Shown: positions 14,979 to 20,570, numbered from the stretch's first letter. The stretch is DNA of 64,000 nt from an uncultured Parachlamydiaceae bacterium (GCA_963752155.1 CAVVXH010000008.1:64001-128000); one strand, 5' to 3'. Notes: generated from the sequence alone by a model not told the origin. Made by a program: numbers and translations.

Positions 14979-15120
14979 GGCGGTGGTCCGCCATATAACC
15001 CAATACCATCCAACCGCTATGAGTATGATGGTAAAGGATTTATGACTAAAATGCTACTGGAATTTATTGGATTTTGATGGTGCAATGGGTTCATCGTTGC
15101 ACCGCTAGTGCACCGTGGGA

Positions 15121-16167
15121 TTAAGAAGGTCTGCGTTTCTTCGGGCTTTTCTTAGGACTGTTCGAGTCAATTTGTTTAACTTCCTTAATAGCCTCGATAA
15201 AGTGCCTCTCAACAGGAGACGGAAGTTCGTTTAATTGCTGCCGGTATTTAGCGTATTCAGCCTTTGCCTTATCAAGAGCATTTTGATGGCTAATTTTACC
15301 TGCATGAGTGAGAATATCACGGTCACTGGTGCGGAGAAAATCATCTAGCTTGACAATCCAGTCTTTCATATACATAGGTTTTCGACTTAAAGCTTGTAGC
15401 TCTGCAAAATCGAGATACATGGCAACAATTAGATTAAGAGTTTCAAGTTCATTGTTGTTTAAATAATTTTTTGCAATTCCAATATCTGGGACACGTAAAT
15501 TATTGCCTGTCCAAGAGGTGAGTCCCATATTCGGCTTTGTAGAGTCTGCTCGAGTGTGGATAATTTCAGCCGCAGTATGCCCGTGAGCAGCCCAGTGCAT
15601 CTTGTTTTGTACAATGGCAAAAAACTCCTCAGACAAATCTGAACGTGGATTGTAATCAATACTTGTAGCATAAATATCAAGAACCTTTCGCCAAAAGACT
15701 TTTTCTGACGAACGGATGTCTCTAATGCGTGCCAATAGCTCATCAAAATAATTACCACCACCAGATTGCTTTAATCGCTCATCATCTAAAACAAATCCTT
15801 TGATAAGGTATTCTTTCAATCGTTGAGTGGCCCAAATGCGAAATTTGGTGCCTCTATGAGAGCTGACTCTGTATCCTACGGAGATGATCACATCTAAGTT
15901 ATAAAAGTCTATTTGCCGTGTGACTTCTCGTGATCCTTCGGCTTGAACTGTCCGGAATTTCCGGATAGTTGAATCTGCAGAGAGTTCCCCTTCGCTAAAG
16001 ATATTTTTTATATGCTCTGAAATCGTTCTCTTATCTTTGTCAAACAGCTCGCTCATTTGAGCTTGACTTAGCCAAACAGTCTCATCAAGAAGACGCACCT
16101 CAACTTTAGTAAGGCCATCTTCGGTTTGATAAAGAATTAGATCACTATCAGGCACGTTAGTTTTCAT
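15121..16167 (-). CDS. rhuM: RhuM-family (virulence RhuM) DNA-binding protein
   Basis: ETVWLSQAQM.ELF, YNLDVIISVGYRV.S.RGT.FR.WAT, RIRDIRSSEKVF. Confidence 0.9.
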   Translation of the reverse strand: MKTNVPDSDLILYQTEDGLTKVEVRLLDETVWLSQAQMSELFDKDKRTISEHIKNIFSEGELSADSTIRKFRTVQAEGSREVTRQIDFYNLDVIISVGYRVSSHRGTKFRIWATQRLKEYLIKGFVLDDERLKQSGGGNYFDELLARIRDIRSSEKVFWRKVLDIYATSIDYNPRSDLSEEFFAIVQNKMHWAAHGHTAAEIIHTRADSTKPNMGLTSWTGNNLRVPDIGIAKNYLNNNELETLNLIVAMYLDFAELQALSRKPMYMKDWIVKLDDFLRTSDRDILTHAGKISHQNALDKAKAEYAKYRQQLNELPSPVERHFIEAIKEVKQIDSNSPKKSPKKRRPS

Positions 16168-16533
16168 TTAAAAGAACTCCTAAATTTTCTCTGACTGGGG
16201 ATACCGATCATATCTCCCTTACTGCATTATAGAGTCGAACTAGCGTCTTTGATGTTAGAGAGATTTTACTTAAAAAGATACCGAATTTTATTGGATTTTA
16301 TGGCACAACAGGGTTCTTTGTCGCCAATGCAGCATCAAAGGCACATGATTAAGTACTCTACCATACATACATTTTGATGAGGCGACTAGATGCATTTAGC
16401 ACTTTTGACTGGAAAAAGTTATCTTTTCCAAATAGAATGATTTCAAAATTTAACCTGAAAAAGCTAATTGATGGAATTATTCTTTTGTAGACTGTGTCGG
16501 ATTGAGGAACATAGCTTTTCTAGAGTAGGAGAT

Positions 16534-17076
16534 ATGATGACTAAAAAAATAGGTATTTATCTAGCAGGAAGTATAAAAAAAGGGCATGAAAATCCTCAAG
16601 AATCGTTTTGGACAGAAAGTGATATAGCTCTGATACAAAATAGCTTTCAAAAACGCGAAGTCATTTTTTTAAATCCTGCTTTCCGCATGGACAACCTTGC
16701 AGACCAGTATTCTGTATTTGGCAGAGATATGACTCAAGTCTTTTGTAGTCATGTGGTATTTGTCGATGCTCGAGACAGAAGAGGTCTTGGCGTAGGAGCT
16801 GAAATGATGTGGGCCAAAATGAATAAAATTCCCGTTGTTACTTGGGCTCCAAAAGACACTCACTATAATAAGACCAAAACGACGATTTTAGGAGTGGAAG
16901 TGAACGATTTTATACATCCATTTGTTTACGGATTGAGCGATAAAATCATTGATAGGCTAGAGGAAGGGGCCCTATGGATAGAAAAAATGTTGTCTGATCC
17001 ATCTATTGAGATTAAAGGGCTCAAGCACATTCAGGCTGCCCATGCAATATTACCAAGAAAGTCAGTTGCCAATTGA
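16534..17076 (+). CDS. Nucleoside 2-deoxyribosyltransferase-like protein
   Basis: IYLAGSI, NP, D...VFVD and G.GAEM.WA motifs; C-terminus probably frameshifted. Confidence 0.55.
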   Translation: MMTKKIGIYLAGSIKKGHENPQESFWTESDIALIQNSFQKREVIFLNPAFRMDNLADQYSVFGRDMTQVFCSHVVFVDARDRRGLGVGAEMMWAKMNKIPVVTWAPKDTHYNKTKTTILGVEVNDFIHPFVYGLSDKIIDRLEEGALWIEKMLSDPSIEIKGLKHIQAAHAILPRKSVAN

Positions 17077-17511: not shown

Positions 17512-18140
17512 ATGTCTCAGATGTTTCGAGTCTTTTTATGTATCTTTCTTTTGGGGAGTAGTTTTATGCATGCAGAAGTCACAGAGATGATCGAACTAGA
17601 CATTATTCCATATGAAAAATTGATCCAAGGCGATTTCGATGCTCTGCAGACACTAGATAAGGCATTACATGAAAAAGGGATTGTTGGTGTTCGAGGAGTG
17701 CCTGGTTATAAAGCAAAATACGAACAATTCATTAATGCAGCTAGAAGATTTAGTGCCCTTCCCGAAGACGTAAAAGAGAGCTATAAGCCAAACAGAGCAC
17801 TTGGGGAGACTTTTCTTGGATATGAAATGGGAAAGGAAAAATTTTTGAGACCAGATGGCACTTGGATAGTCGATGACCTAAAAACTTCCTACTATGCATA
17901 TATTCCTGATAGCACTAAAAACAAATGGCCTTTAGAAGTTAACTTGCAAGAGCCATTTGAAGCTTTAGGGCAATTAATGGCAGACACTGGCGAATTGGTT
18001 ATGCATAAAATTGGGCTTTTAGGGAGTGTTACAGGCTTTGAGTTAGAAGAAGATTCTCGGCTAGGTCGGATGCTCTATTATCGTAAGAGTGACAACAATG
18101 AAAATCCTCATTGGTGTGGTGCTCATTTTGATCATGCCAA
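17512..18140 (+). pseudogene. 2OG-Fe(II) oxygenase (IPNS-like), 3'-truncated
   Basis: GIVGVRGVP, RMLYY and WCGAHFDH (HxD) motifs, then a junction with the antisense primase remnant. Confidence 0.7.
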
Positions 18141-19354
18141 TCAAGCTTCCAAGGTAGACAAAGAGAGAAGCTACAAAATAGTCTTCAGCTATTTGCATCT
18201 GCTTGGCATTTCCTTGTATCCAATCAGTAAGTTCTTGAGGTAAAGTTAATGTAGGGCAAGGCAAAACCTCGCTTAAAAGCTCCTTAATGGCCTCAGGCGG
18301 GCTGTTAAAAGCAGGTGGTCCATCAACATTCTTTTCAAAATACTTGAATGCATCCAAGGAATTGCTGTTCACGTGATCTTCAAACGCAATCCTTAGATAT
18401 TCTGAATGCGGCTCATCAATGGGGCCAAAACCATCCCATTCAGGTGGACATTTTGAATGGGCTAGAATCCAATCCACAAAATCATCACCCTTATTCTCGA
18501 TAGAAAGTTTACAGACTGTCAGCTTTGCACTTGGACAAGCTTTTTGAACCTCCTGAGCTACTGCCTCCATATACTTGTGGCCAGGGTTATCATTGTCAGG
18601 GATAAGCACGAATTCGCAAACATGTCTAAACTTTGCTAATATCGCCCAATCCGCATACTGGGCTTGACTTGATCCCATCATTGAGGTCAGTGCCGATAAG
18701 CCTAGATGATGCGCTTCGGCGGCTACCAACTGAGCGTTAGGTCTGCCTTCTAAAAGCTCTCTTGCCAGTCCTTGGAGGATTTGAGCGACTAGGTGGATAT
18801 CTATAGGGTAGGCTGTAGCAGGCGCAATTCGACTGATTTTTCCTGTATGCTGATCAACTCTCATCTCCTCAGGAAAGATTTCTTCGATAAGGCCTCTTTC
18901 CTCTTGAGACAATTGTTCCCTTAGATAAGCTGTAAAACTTCTAAGAGAGCGTATTTTAGATGATCTGCGACCTTTTTTTCTTTTCATTTCTGACGCTATC
19001 CTTTCTAGGTAAACCTCTAGAGTTTCATTAGAGTAAGGCTTCTGGATAATGCGTTTCATGTAATCTTGGATGTCAAGATTGAGTTCAAGCCATTCCTCAT
19101 AATAGGGCTTAGCCAACTCCTTTGCTGCTTCGACCACAGGAGATGTACGATTAAATTTAGGAAAGTGATCGTATAAATCTGCAAATATCCAACAAAAGAG
19201 CCTCTTTACGAGGCCAAGGATCAATATTATCATCTCCAAACCCAGGTGTTCCTGCTATGCTAAGACCTGACGATTTCCAGATTTCTTCTTTTCGTTTCAT
19301 CTGAGATAAGAAATCTCGGAGAACGTCTTTTAAACGTTCAAGCTGGTTGCTCAT
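18130..19354 (-). pseudogene. Chimeric remnant: recombinase-like protein / TOPRIM primase / DUF3987-like start
   Basis: SKIRSLRSF helix; TOPRIM LIPDNDNPG..Y and GDDFVDW; LP.ELTDWI...QMQ DUF3987-like segment. Confidence 0.55.
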
Positions 19355-20418
19355 TCATTGCCCCGATGTTAAGATTTTCTGTAATGCCCTCAGAGTATTT
19401 TCTAACGAGATCGGCTTCGAGATGGGTATAACGCTGAAGCATTTGTAAAGTACGATGTCCCATTGCTGTTGCAAGCTCAAGGTTAGAAGCACCCTGGCGG
19501 GCTGCCAGAGTGGCAAAGCTGTGTCTAATGTCATGAAAGCGTAGATTAGTGAGTTCTGCTCGCCTAAGAGTTTCTTGCCATGGTTTCTTGATGTCAATTT
19601 CGCCAAATGCCGTTTTGCTGGCAAAGATCACTTTTTTATTGGGTTGCTTGATCTCATGAAGGCGTTTTAATTCCTCAACGACCTCATCAACCAAGGGTAC
19701 ACTTCTTGGTCGGCCATTTTTAGTTTCTTTGAGATGAGCAAGTTGATTCTTAAAGTCATGGTCCCACTTGAGTTGCAAGATTTCTCCTTGCCTCATACCT
19801 GTTGTGATAGCCATCAGAACAATGCAATATAGATAGGGGTTGCGACTCTCTTTGCAGGAAATGATCAGACGAGATGCTTCATCTTCAGAAAGAATGCGAT
19901 CTCTTCCTTTGGATTCTTTGAGCTTGATTAGGTTAAAGCATGGGTTTTCATCTATCCAGCGAAGACGGCGACAAGCATAGGTTAAGCAAGAAGATAGAGC
20001 GGCAATATAGCGGTTGACGGTTGCAGATGAACGCTTCTTTCCATTAAGCATTGGCGTTTCCACCAAAAGCTGCCGTTCCTTAGAAAGAAGCTCAGGTGTA
20101 AGATGGACAAGCGCATAGCCAGCAAGTCGCTCTTTCCAGTAATTCATATGACGAATAGCGTCTTTTTTTGCTCGCAAATGCTCTAATGCGCCATCAGAAA
20201 TATAGCGTTGAACAAGATCAGCAAAAGTGCGATGGGTGTTGACTCTTTCAAACTTGAACTGTCCCATCTTGATCTGGCGTTCAACTTCTTGTGCCCAATC
20301 TTCAGCTTCTTGTTTGCGATCCAAATGATTGCAGACTGTAGGGATAGCCTTTGATACGGACAACTGCTCGCCAGTGACTAGTTCCGTTCTTATTTTTACG
20401 CTTTTGTATAGAAGCCAT
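19338..20418 (-). CDS. Tyrosine integrase (+1 frameshift near 20342, possibly a sequencing error)
   Basis: TTGMRQGEI, TKNG, HDIRH, GH and RYTH catalytic residues intact; true start MASIQKRK at 20418 with GAGG RBS; one extra G versus the paralog at ~11590. Confidence 0.9.
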
Positions 20419-20570
20419 TGCTCAAACCTCATGTGTTAATGGTTCGAGCGGCTGGATGGTGTGTGTTAAGATTGTTTTTCGTTGCACCGCCATTGCACCG
20501 CAAGCCAAATTTTAGCTTGAACAATATTATTGAATCAAGCTAAATCCTGCTCACAGCTAATGGAAAAAAG

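What the first reader, a model, noticed from the sequence alone, without database searches (positions are those of the whole stretch)
14979..20460. Candidate excision-coupled RNA switch controlling integrase translation, conserved in two islands
Seen: (1) Both integrase leaders form a minus-strand hairpin over the RBS/start region: GCTCGAACC/GGTTTGAGC at 20449-20420 and GCTCAAAC/GTTTGAGC at 11700-11670. (2) At each element's opposite end, just inside att, lies a conserved minus-strand promoter-like TAGCAT-17bp-TA(C/T)CAT (15056-15028; 7708-7680). (3) Its predicted transcript begins with AGCGGTTG(G/A)ATG (15018-15005; 7670-7659), complementary to the integrase leader ACCATCCAGCCGCT (20460-20447) or TATCCAACCGCT (11709-11698), overlapping the hairpin's 5' strand. 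(4) Most deviations from perfect pairing are G-U wobbles only on the minus strand, as expected for RNA pairing. Inference: in the excised circle (attP) this transcript crosses att into the integrase leader and opens the hairpin. When integrated, tRNA read-through lacks the opener and Int stays silent. I know of no described system with this exact layout.
Basis: partly seen in the sequence, partly recalled or inferred. Interest (0 to 1): 0.8.

Follow-up and report, generated by a model that had tools for sequence, protein, structure and literature searches.

The report
Integrase RNA lock with far-end key
Mobile islands inserted in a tRNA gene of environmental chlamydiae hide the start of their integrase gene in an RNA hairpin, and a promoter at the island's opposite end makes a matching sequence that could open it once the two ends are joined.

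Summary
The window holds a tandem array of tRNA-Met islands. Island B (14979-20565) has an RNA hairpin over the integrase start (-17.9 kcal/mol, z -4.3). Its far end has an outward promoter-like site followed by a 14-nt motif complementary to the hairpin's 5' flank.

In 33 related chlamydial elements with both ends located, this layout recurs with unrelated sequences. Six sequence classes each have a far-end "key" complementary to their own "lock", which overlaps the anti-Shine-Dalgarno arm. Cognate scores are 22-26, against a non-cognate mean of 14.1. The -10 before the key keeps TAnnnT in 20 of 20 aligned far ends. In modelled joined-end transcripts the key-lock helix forms in 23 of 33, and the cost of exposing the start site falls in 22 of 33. 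One natural contig with joined ends folds the same way.

Separate direct repeats (CGGTGCA x2 on each arm) look like the integrase arm sites.

Caveats:
- There is no expression data, so action in cis versus in trans is open.
- Opening is only partial in the window's own class.
- The G-U argument fails.
- Island B's integrase is frameshifted and island A's is decayed.

Verdict: a probable RNA key-lock, a new variant of circle-dependent integrase control.

The parts
20570..20644 (-). tRNA-Met (CAT) gene. Its 3' half is the attachment core.
   Evidence: ARAGORN; Rfam tRNA 70.1 bits
20566..20612 (-). att core copy 1 (in the intact tRNA), at the integrase end of island B
   Evidence: Direct repeat family D1
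14932..14978 (-). att core copy 2, at the far end of island B and the start of truncated element C
7590..7636 (-). att core copy 3, at the far end of island A and the end of the array
15028..15056 (-). Outward promoter-like site Pout of island B (TAGCAT-17-TACCAT)
   Evidence: TAnnnT is invariant in 20 of 20 aligned far ends and the -35 T is invariant. Activity is not shown.
15005..15018 (-). Key of island B (AGCGGTTGGATGGT), 9 nt after the -10 and 26 nt before the core
   Evidence: It is the best complement to the leader in the whole 5.4-kb island body on either strand.
15098..15115 (-). Two CGGTGCA repeats 11 nt apart (far arm); inferred integrase arm-type sites
   Evidence: The repeat word changes with the integrase subfamily.
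20483..20500 (-). Two CGGTGCA repeats 11 nt apart (integrase arm), in the same orientation as the far-arm pair
   Evidence: core positions invariant in 27 of 27
20509..20538 (-). Promoter-like site Pint (TTGATT-18-TAAAAT), overlapping a conserved inverted repeat (20514-20541)
20447..20460 (-). Lock of island B (ACCATCCAGCCGCT), the 5' flank and base of the hairpin
20413..20453 (-). Hairpin over the SD/start region of integrase B
   Evidence: -17.9 kcal/mol, z -4.30
19338..20432 (-). Integrase B, 364-aa ORF. Residues 28-364 are homologous to relatives; the true start is at 20418 in another frame (frameshift near 20340-20345).
7680..7708 (-). Pout-like site of island A (TAGCAT-17-TATCAT)
7659..7670 (-). 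Key of island A (AGCGGTTGAATG)
11698..11709 (-). Lock of island A (TATCCAACCGCT)
11670..11700 (-). Hairpin over the start of integrase remnant A
   Evidence: -11.2 kcal/mol, z -1.88
11345..11668 (-). Integrase remnant A (N-terminal fragment only)

Best explanation
The region is the pair of ends of a tRNA-Met-specific integrative element, from a family widespread in Chlamydiales. Together the two ends make up the element's attP site.

The integrase mRNA leader folds so that an upstream 'lock' segment pairs with the Shine-Dalgarno/start region and blocks translation. This would apply to transcripts that start at the element's own promoter-like site (Pint), at the tRNA gene, or in a neighbouring island.

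At the other end of the element, a promoter-like site points outward across the attachment core. Its transcript begins with a 'key' of 10-20 nt complementary to the lock. When the ends are joined (excised circle, phage genome or infecting DNA), the key, the core, the lock and the integrase gene lie on one transcript. The key would pair with the lock first and remove part or all of the sequestering arm, so integrase would be translated when reintegration is needed.

The direct CGGTGCA repeats on both arms are the likely arm-type integrase binding sites and are a separate feature.

Shown here: the sequences, their conservation and covariation, and the predicted folds. Inferred: promoter activity, RNA pairing in the cell, the effect on translation, and action in cis.

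I put RNA pairing of some kind (cis or trans) at about 0.7, and the full cis, joining-dependent version at 0.45.
For: Distribution. The integrase family is found in 142 of 301 genomes of the order at E<=1e-30. Relatives are Chlamydiae MAGs.

Sample. Far ends were located for 33 elements: 26 from 40 fetched stretches plus the window, 6 of 20 loci, and island A.

Key-lock complementarity.
- It exceeds shuffles (P<=0.02) in 15 of 26 elements. In all 15 the lock overlaps the arm paired to the SD/start region by 1-13 nt.
- Six classes with unrelated key sequences have cognate scores of 22-26. Non-cognate scores have mean 14.1, sd 2.1, max 22. Examples are AGCGGTTGGATGG, TGGTTGGATGA, GATTTAGGTTGG, GTTAGCTGCTGGG, CGTGAGCAGTGA and GGAAGTTATGTAG.
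- Compensatory variants occur inside the main class: AGCAGCTGG/CCAGCTGCT, ACGGTTGG/CCAACCGT and AGCGATTGG/CCAATCGCT.
- Within the alignable family (n=20), the cognate sum is 525 against a permuted 453.8 +/- 14.9; 0 of 20000 permutations reach it.
- In a scan of whole element bodies (4-18 kb, both strands), the best complement of the leader lies on the sense strand within 27 nt of the far core in 15 of 33.

Promoter. The -10-like element keeps TAnnnT in 20 of 20 far ends while its inner bases vary.

Folding.
- Modelled joined-end transcripts contain the key-lock helix in the MFE in 23 of 33. The cost of freeing SD..AUG falls by >=2.5 kcal/mol in 22 of 33.
- Cognate far ends beat 3 random non-cognate far ends by >=2.5 kcal/mol in 16 of 25.
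- The natural contig L099 has far end, core and integrase leader contiguous. Its 270-nt RNA has MFE -90.1 and z -4.96, forms the long-range key-lock helix, and has its start hairpin cut from 12 to 6 pairs.

Specificity. At 22 natural tandem junctions the neighbour's key does not match the next integrase's lock (scores 10-20).

Second key. Two class VI elements carry a second, perfectly complementary key (12 and 17 nt) in the 5' UTR of a small gene, and it covaries with the lock.

No intervening terminator. No terminator-like site lies between the core and the integrase start in the window. The conserved inverted repeat there has T-poor tails; only 1 of 24 has >=5 T in the first 8 nt.
Against: - There are no RNA data of any kind, so promoter activity is inferred from conservation only. 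The tool's consensus scan did not list Pout.
- In the window's class the key overlaps only 3-4 nt of the hairpin. The core stem GCUCGAACC/GGUUUGAGC persists when the key is bound. Predicted opening for island B is 1.3 kcal/mol and for island A 2.2. L038 and L042 show no drop.
- 10 of 33 elements show no key-lock helix in the modelled fold. Most are the most distant ones (integrase identity <=40%, long leaders); the 10 also include L042, L059, island A, and L034 with its mis-assigned far end.
- G-U versus A-C mismatches and sense versus antisense stability give no strand signal.
- Two copies inherited together covary whether they act as RNA or as protein sites, and the elements are related, so the permutation figures overstate the support.
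- A conserved inverted repeat between the core and the leader could still stop transcripts.
- The second key in a 5' UTR suggests that action in trans is possible.
- Both integrases in the window are damaged.
Confidence: 0.45

Rival explanations
1. The key acts in trans. The outward transcript, or in some classes the 5' UTR of another gene of the element, is a regulatory RNA that pairs with the integrase mRNA made from Pint and activates its translation, whatever the state of the element. Control would then lie in when the key RNA is made, not in joining of the ends.
For: - Class VI elements carry a second perfect key (12 and 17 nt) in the 5' UTR of a small gene about 2.3 kb from the lock, and it covaries with the lock.
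- A conserved Pint-like site would supply lock-bearing mRNA in the integrated state.
- The conserved inverted repeat between core and leader might limit read-through.
- The key:lock duplex is strong on its own, -29.3 kcal/mol for island B.
Against: - In the integrated state the outward transcript has no evident terminator in the window and would run into the host gene at 7500-6658.
- The key's fixed place next to the core is not needed for action in trans.
- The natural joined-end contig forms the helix in cis.
- Constant key synthesis would defeat the lock unless Pout is regulated.
Confidence: 0.25
2. The two motifs are an inverted pair of double-stranded DNA sites in the attP arms, bound by an accessory protein (a directionality factor, a host bending protein or the integrase). 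They shape the recombination complex or repress Pout and the integrase leader. The RNA complementarity would be a by-product.
For: - The motifs are an inverted repeat at the DNA level, one in each arm.
- Both copies change together between subfamilies, as arm-type sites do.
- There is no G-U strand bias.
- The main-class motif is highly conserved as a sequence.
Against: - Another set of repeats (two per arm, 11-nt spacing, word changing with the integrase N-terminus) already fits arm-type sites.
- In all 15 significant cases, across unrelated sequence classes, the integrase-side copy overlaps the arm that pairs with the SD/start region. My rough estimate of the chance of such an overlap is 0.12 per class.
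- The far-side copy keeps close to the -10-like element, with 5-17 nt between them by my reading. Its distance to the core varies from 11 to 29 nt.
- In L048 the complementary stretch sits next to the core (2 nt) but still targets the sequestering arm.
- No class-specific accessory protein was found.
Confidence: 0.15
3. Pout exists to keep host genes downstream of the interrupted tRNA locus expressed, or to express cargo. The hairpin is an ordinary translational brake. The complementarity has no function of its own.
For: In the window the last far end points into a co-oriented host gene (metallophosphoesterase, 7500-6658) 90 nt beyond the core. Outward promoters at element ends are common (recalled).
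Against: This does not explain cognate-specific complementarity in six unrelated classes, the compensatory variants, or the whole-element scan result.
Confidence: 0.05

Closest known systems
ICEclc Pcirc/Pint arrangement (Pseudomonas knackmussii B13)
   Same: A promoter at the end far from the integrase gene faces outward when integrated. On excision it is placed upstream of a weaker Pint and the integrase gene, raising integrase expression for reintegration (passages read in review PMC5812530; transcript table in PMC2892462).
   Different: ICEclc control is described as transcriptional only. Here the outward transcript also starts with a sequence complementary to a translational lock in the leader, and the pair differs between element classes. 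These islands are small and island B has no conjugation genes.
Phage lambda sib retroregulation of int (recalled; only a search listing seen)
   Same: An RNA element that controls int expression lies on the other side of att. Site-specific recombination therefore decides whether it sits on the int transcript.
   Different: sib lies 3' of int, makes an RNase III hairpin and lowers int expression in the joined state. Here the element lies 5' of int, is predicted to raise translation in the joined state, and works by competing for a sequestering arm.
Anti-antisense activation of translation by small RNAs (DsrA-rpoS type) and synthetic toehold switches (recalled; toehold switches mentioned in an abstract listed)
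   Same: A 5' UTR hairpin hides the ribosome binding site. An RNA complementary to the upstream arm, with an unpaired toehold next to it, frees the site.
   Different: In those systems the activator is a separate RNA made from another locus. Here it would be joined to the target by recombination of the element's ends, and it comes in mutually non-matching classes among elements that share one insertion site.
IS10/IS50 fold-back inhibition of read-through transcripts (recalled; search found no paper to read on it)
   Same: The hairpin protects the recombinase gene from translation of transcripts that enter from outside the element.
   Different: In IS10 the element's own promoter starts inside the hairpin, so its transcript is open. 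Here the Pint-like site lies upstream of the whole hairpin, and opening needs a third sequence from the far end.
Lambda-type attP with arm-type integrase sites (recalled)
   Same: Short direct repeats lie on both arms around a core that is the anticodon loop and 3' half of a tRNA. The repeat word tracks the integrase subfamily.
   Different: The key/lock pair is an extra, inverted, single-copy-per-arm motif tied to a promoter and to the SD hairpin.

Membership tests
tRNA-targeting tyrosine-integrase island | Tyrosine recombinase catalytic domain | tested here: met
   PF00589, E 4.8e-30, for the ORF 19338-20432
tRNA-targeting tyrosine-integrase island | Direct repeats made of the 3' part of the target tRNA at both ends | tested here: met
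   47-nt repeat at 7590, 14932 and 20566; the last lies inside tRNA-Met
tRNA-targeting tyrosine-integrase island | Intact integrase reading frame | tested here: not met
   Relatives align only from residue 28. The frame from ATG 20418 stops after 38 codons. Island A keeps only a fragment. An assembly error cannot be excluded.
tRNA-targeting tyrosine-integrase island | Excision or an empty site observed | tested here: inconclusive
   The same-genus genome G237 also has about 25 kb between the two flanks. One joined-end contig of a related element exists.
ICEclc-type Pcirc/Pint control | Outward-facing promoter at the end distal to the integrase gene | tested here: inconclusive
   A conserved -35/-10-like site with TAnnnT invariant in 20 of 20. 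Its activity was not measured.
ICEclc-type Pcirc/Pint control | Separate promoter directly upstream of the integrase gene | tested here: inconclusive
   TTGATT-18-TAAAAT. CTTGA was found at the expected place in 24 of 27 relatives. Activity was not measured.
ICEclc-type Pcirc/Pint control | Higher integrase expression after excision | not testable with these tools
   No RNA run listed
Translational activation by pairing to an anti-SD arm | Leader hairpin that pairs the SD/start region | tested here: met
   Opening cost is 8.6-19.3 kcal/mol in 24 of 33 Pint-type transcripts.
Translational activation by pairing to an anti-SD arm | Activator RNA complementary to the sequestering arm or its flank | tested here: met
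   (complementarity only)
Translational activation by pairing to an anti-SD arm | Pairing raises translation | not testable with these tools
   Only thermodynamic models
Lambda sib-type retroregulation | Regulatory RNA element 3' of int that is cut by RNase III | tested here: not met
   The element lies 5' of the integrase gene. No test of RNase III was possible.
Any curated RNA family (Rfam 15) | Match to a covariance model | tested here: not met
   Only the two tRNAs and chance-level hits in 5000-23000 at E<=1

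The most novel reading that the evidence does not exclude
The key and lock form a self-recognition code. Many different islands and phages pile up in tandem at the same chlamydial tRNA-Met gene, each reading outward into its neighbour's integrase gene. 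The lock would insulate each integrase from the tRNA promoter and from neighbours. Only the element's own key, brought into cis when its own two ends are joined, unlocks translation. Competition among co-resident elements would then have driven the pairs to diversify into mutually non-matching classes, as with plasmid incompatibility RNAs. Some classes would add a second key on another gene's mRNA, so that integrase is also made when excision is called for.
Probability: 0.3. Interest if true: 0.85.

Novelty: new variant of a known kind. Interest (0 to 1): 0.72.

Why it matters
If confirmed, this would be a way for a mobile element to read its own topological state (integrated or joined ends) through RNA base pairing rather than through a protein sensor or a simple promoter fusion.

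It would be a natural counterpart of engineered toehold switches, with several naturally orthogonal key-lock pairs.

It would also explain how many related elements can share one insertion hot spot without switching on each other's integrases.

It gives concrete, cheap tests (reporter fusions with compensatory mutations) in a phylum where mobile-element biology is almost unexplored. Finally, it gives annotators a sequence signature for finding both ends of these islands.

Tried and rejected
- RNAalifold on 27 mixed leaders found only 3 pairs, because two classes use different 5' arms. The split alignments show arms that are almost invariant within a class, so they carry little covariation.
- RNAduplex on long stretches gave long, loop-ridden interactions that were not informative.
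- An exact-word scan of whole elements was swamped by the arm repeats and broken by G-U pairs. It was replaced by a scored scan.
- G-U versus A-C counting was not decisive.
- Sense versus antisense stability of 50 leaders went the other way (antisense more stable in 33). The likely cause is A/C-rich leaders.
- Sequencing runs: no RNA holder listed, and only small shares in DNA runs.
- Empty-site check in the same-genus genome G237: the site is occupied there too.
- Joined-end patterns in viral contigs: class I gave 0 hits and class IV gave 0. A loose class II pattern gave 2 hits, both unrelated coding DNA with no tRNA core and no integrase.
- The class I joined-end pattern was found in 0 of 301 genomes of the order. 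I did not count keys and locks separately there, so no expectation can be given.
- Literature: searches found no description of a far-end RNA that opens an integrase leader. Searches gave only listings for sib and IS10.
- Earlier findings of this scan: nothing returned.
- Pfam gives no named arm-binding domain for the first 60 residues of a full-length relative.
- I considered that the far-end motif is a decayed copy of the integrase start region. I rejected this because it pairs with a stretch shifted 5' of the hairpin arm, and it is perfect where the hairpin itself is not.

Full report
**What is in the window**

A tRNA-Met(CAT) gene lies at 20570-20644 on the minus strand. Its last 43 nt, plus 4 flanking bases, recur at 14932-14978 and 7590-7636. 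The stretch 7637-20565 is therefore a tandem array of integrated elements.

- Island B (14979-20565) carries a tyrosine integrase next to the tRNA (PF00589, E 4.8e-30), a primase-like remnant (PHROG DNA primase, E 5.5e-6), cargo genes and a RhuM-family gene.
- The stretch 11857-14935 is a truncated element of another subfamily. It has an integrase fragment (14460-14894) and its own repeats (ATGCACAC x2).
- Island A (7637 to about 11856) keeps only an N-terminal integrase fragment (11345-11668).

Relatives found in public genomes are Chlamydiae MAGs, including Parachlamydiaceae and Anoxychlamydiales. The integrase family matches in 142 of 301 genomes sampled from the order.

- The island B hairpin is strong: -17.9 kcal/mol, z -4.30, with 0 of 200 shuffles as stable. 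Island A's is modest: z -1.88.
- Island B's 14-bp complementarity, with one G-U, was matched by 3 of 200 shuffles.

Two facts were missed.
- Integrase B is frameshifted. Relatives align only from residue 28 of the 364-aa ORF. The conserved N-terminus MASIQKRKNKNGTSHWRAVVRIKGYP starts at 20418 in another frame and stops after 38 codons.
- A second promoter-like site, TTGATT-18-TAAAAT (20538-20509), lies between the core and the leader.

**Comparative anatomy**

I fetched 40 stretches of up to 20 kb around homologous integrases. They were chosen for long contigs and to span 35-66% identity, not for the feature. I also used 20 loci from a genome-collection scan.

A far-end copy of the tRNA core was found for 26 elements, counting island B. 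It was not found for 14 stretches, and L043 was dropped because its integrase is broken and it lacks a far-end module. Six further elements came from the loci, and island A was added, giving 33.

Read in the integrase's direction, the main family has the same plan everywhere.

- Far end: two direct repeats (CGGTGCA, 11 nt apart), then about 45 nt, a -35-like hexamer, a 17-nt spacer, a -10-like hexamer, 9 nt, the key, 11-29 nt, and the core starting in the anticodon loop.
- Integrase end: the core, a promoter-like site overlapping a conserved inverted repeat, the same two direct repeats, a conserved spacer, the lock, the hairpin, and ATG.

In the alignment of 20 far ends, the T and A that open the -10 and the T that closes it are invariant, while the inner bases vary: TACCAT, TATCAT, TATAGT, TATAAT, TATACT, TATGCT. 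This is the pattern expected of a working sigma-70-type -10.

The direct repeats change word with the integrase subfamily (GTGGACCA, TGGGCCA, ATGGTGCACT, GTGGCACA, TTCCCCAC) and always occur on both arms. This fits arm-type integrase sites. That assignment is an inference; Pfam names no arm-binding domain in the first 60 residues.

**The key and the lock covary**

In sequence-unrelated classes, the stretch just after the -10-like element is complementary to the leader segment that overlaps the arm paired with the SD/start region.

| Class / element | Key | Lock | Hairpin or 3' arm |
|---|---|---|---|
| I | AGCGGTTGGATGG | CCATCCAGCCGCT | next to hairpin GCTCGAACC/GGTTTGAGC |
| II | TGGTTGGATGA | TCATCCAACCA | the lock is itself the arm paired with AAAGGTTGGA |
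| III | GATTTAGGTTGG | CCGACCTAAATC | |
| IV | GTTAGCTGCTGGG | CCCAGCAGCTAAC | 3' arm CAAAGGTAAGCT |
| V | CGTGAGCAGTGA | TCACTGCTCACG | 3' arm GGAGCATGAGCATGA |
| VI | GGAAGTTATGTAG | CTACATAACTTCC | 3' arm GGAGTTTTGTAGCG |

These pairs are shown.

- Complementarity beat shuffles at P<=0.02 in 15 of 26 elements, and in all 15 the lock overlaps the sequestering arm.
- Cognate scores for the six classes are 22-26. Non-cognate pairs have mean 14.1, sd 2.1, max 22.
- Inside the main class there are double-sided changes that keep pairing (L050, L054, L084).
- At the one variable position of the core motif, the observed states by my own tally are U-A (about 7), U-G (about 9) and C-G (3). C-A was not seen.
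- Permuting partners among 20 alignable elements never reached the observed sum: 525 against 453.8 +/- 14.9, 0 of 20000 permutations. Relatedness inflates this figure.
- A scan that did not assume where the key lies compared the leader (-62 to -15) with the whole element body on both strands. It put the top hit on the sense strand within 27 nt of the far core in 15 of 33. In two more, the best sense hit was there but an antisense site scored higher.
- The scan also showed that I had taken the wrong far end for L034. Its true far end has the full module and a perfect 14-bp key.

The misses:
- The most distant elements (integrase identity <=40%, leaders of 350-450 nt): L061, L062, L066, L070, L071 and L072.
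- L048 and L059, which are weak.
- L044, L053, L054, L058, L084 and island A, where other sites scored as high or higher.
- L065, whose lock lies outside the scanned window.

**Folding**

For each element I modelled three RNAs in scripts: from 100 nt before the ATG (Pint-type), from the tRNA start, and from the key across the core to +30 (joined ends).

The free-energy cost of unpairing -14..+5 around the ATG is 8.6-19.3 kcal/mol in 24 of 33 Pint-type RNAs. It falls by >=2.5 kcal/mol in the joined-end RNA in 22 of 33. Examples are L065 19.3 to 7.6, L058 15.1 to 5.0, L069 15.4 to 6.4 and L056 13.7 to 5.7. The key-lock helix is in the MFE in 23 of 33.

With three random non-cognate far ends as controls, the cognate was lower by >=2.5 kcal/mol in 16 of 25.

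The window's own islands respond weakly: B goes from 11.6 to 10.3 and A from 11.0 to 8.8. L038 and L042 do not respond. In class I the key takes only the base of the stem (GCC and GCU), and the 9-bp core stem remains.

A metagenome contig, L099, holds a class I far end (downstream of a P22-like portal gene), the core, the integrase arm and the integrase start in one piece. That is either a joined-end form or a same-class tandem. Its natural 270-nt RNA folds at -90.1 kcal/mol (z -4.96, 0 of 200 shuffles) with the long-range key-lock helix. The start hairpin shrinks from 12 pairs, including the AUG, in the short RNA to a 6-pair A/U stem.

**Against a terminator in between**

The scan lists no terminator-like site between 20570 and 20432. 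The inverted repeat at 20514-20541 is conserved and shows compensatory inner pairs. Its tails, however, hold >=5 T in the first 8 nt in only 1 of 24 relatives. It overlaps the -35 and spacer of the Pint-like site and may be an operator. It remains unexplained.

**RNA or protein site?**

The two motifs are an inverted repeat in DNA, and co-inherited copies covary under either reading. Internal G-U and A-C mismatches are about 10 against 6 by my own tally, and antisense leaders are on average more stable, in 33 of 50.

Four things favour RNA:
- (a) A different, better candidate for arm-type sites exists.
- (b) In every significant class the integrase-side copy overlaps the sequestering arm. My rough estimate of the chance of overlap is 0.12 per class.
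- (c) The far-side copy stays at the start of the predicted transcript while its distance to the core varies.
- (d) In class VI a second copy sits in the 5' UTR of a small gene and covaries with the lock between two relatives, at 12 and 17 nt perfect. The product of that gene has only a sub-threshold likeness to excisionase-type HTH_17 (E 0.18).

Point (d) also shows that action in trans cannot be dismissed.

**Tandem arrays**

At 22 natural junctions where a neighbour's far end precedes a main-family integrase, the neighbour's key scores 10-20 against that integrase's lock, which is background level. This includes two junctions with class I keys, scoring 18 and 20.

The class I key-core-lock arrangement in cis was found in 0 of 301 genomes of the order and once in metagenome contigs. 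This fits a lock that insulates each integrase from read-through, plus a key that recognises self. I did not compute an expectation, however, and same-class tandems may be unstable for other reasons.

**Comparison with known systems**

The two-promoter layout matches ICEclc, where the outward Pcirc is fused upstream of Pint and intB13 on excision (review passages). The idea that recombination at att decides which RNA element sits on the int transcript is that of lambda sib, which I recall but did not read. Opening a sequestered ribosome site by pairing with the upstream arm is the DsrA-rpoS or toehold-switch principle (recalled).

I found no description of these combined for an integrase, and Rfam has no matching family. 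I therefore class it as a new variant of known kinds. It is supported by comparative sequence evidence only.

**Verdict**

RNA pairing between a far-end transcript and the integrase leader is the best explanation, at about 0.7. Its dependence on joining of the ends is plausible, at 0.45 for the full model. The window's own copies are probably decaying members.

Noticed in passing
window 20300-20432: Integrase B is out of frame. The conserved N-terminus starts at ATG 20418 and hits a stop after 38 codons. The long ORF starts at 20432 with 27 residues that match no relative. Compared with relatives there is one extra base near 20340-20345 (a C/T run). This is either a pseudogene or an assembly error.
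   Followed up: partly
window 11857-14935: A third, truncated element of another integrase subfamily sits between islands A and B. It has an integrase fragment at 14460-14894, its own direct repeats (ATGCACAC x2 at about 14845-14865) and its own start-region hairpin (CAGCAC...GTGCTG). Its far end and island A's integrase-side core are missing.
   Followed up: partly
window 20514-20541 and the same place in relatives (alignment A5): A conserved inverted repeat, CTTGAnn-N10-nnTCAAG, shows compensatory inner pairs. It overlaps the -35 and spacer of the Pint-like site. Its tails are T-poor, so it is not a canonical terminator. It could be an operator or an RNA hairpin.
   Followed up: partly
L059 2728-2938; L065 16944-17147 and its upstream 34 nt: In two tRNA-Leu elements, a small gene (65 and 68 aa, with weak sub-threshold likeness to excisionase-type HTH_17) has in its 5' UTR a 12- or 17-nt perfect complement of that element's integrase lock. 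The sequence differs between the two elements but matches each one's own lock.
   Followed up: partly
loci L053-L072: The two-per-arm direct repeats change word with the integrase subfamily and target tRNA (Met, Thr, Leu, Asn, Tyr, Lys). This would allow arm-site and integrase N-terminus specificity to be paired up across a large natural set.
   Followed up: no
window 16250-16299: A third copy (72% identical) of the 50-nt block that holds Pout lies about 100 nt upstream of the RhuM-family gene (16167-15121). A perfect TATAAT follows at about 16222-16227. The far-end promoter block may have been duplicated with the RhuM cassette.
   Followed up: no
L099 10-1110: The far-end module of a class I element follows a P22-like portal gene (PF16510, E 3.9e-32). 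At least some members of this integrase family may therefore be temperate tailed phages of chlamydiae or of bacteria that share this tRNA.
   Followed up: no
window 11020-11682 and 13169-13795: Two DUF1016 N-terminal-domain ORFs lie in the array. One is fused in frame to the hairpin region of integrase remnant A (its ATG at 11682 lies inside the hairpin).
   Followed up: no
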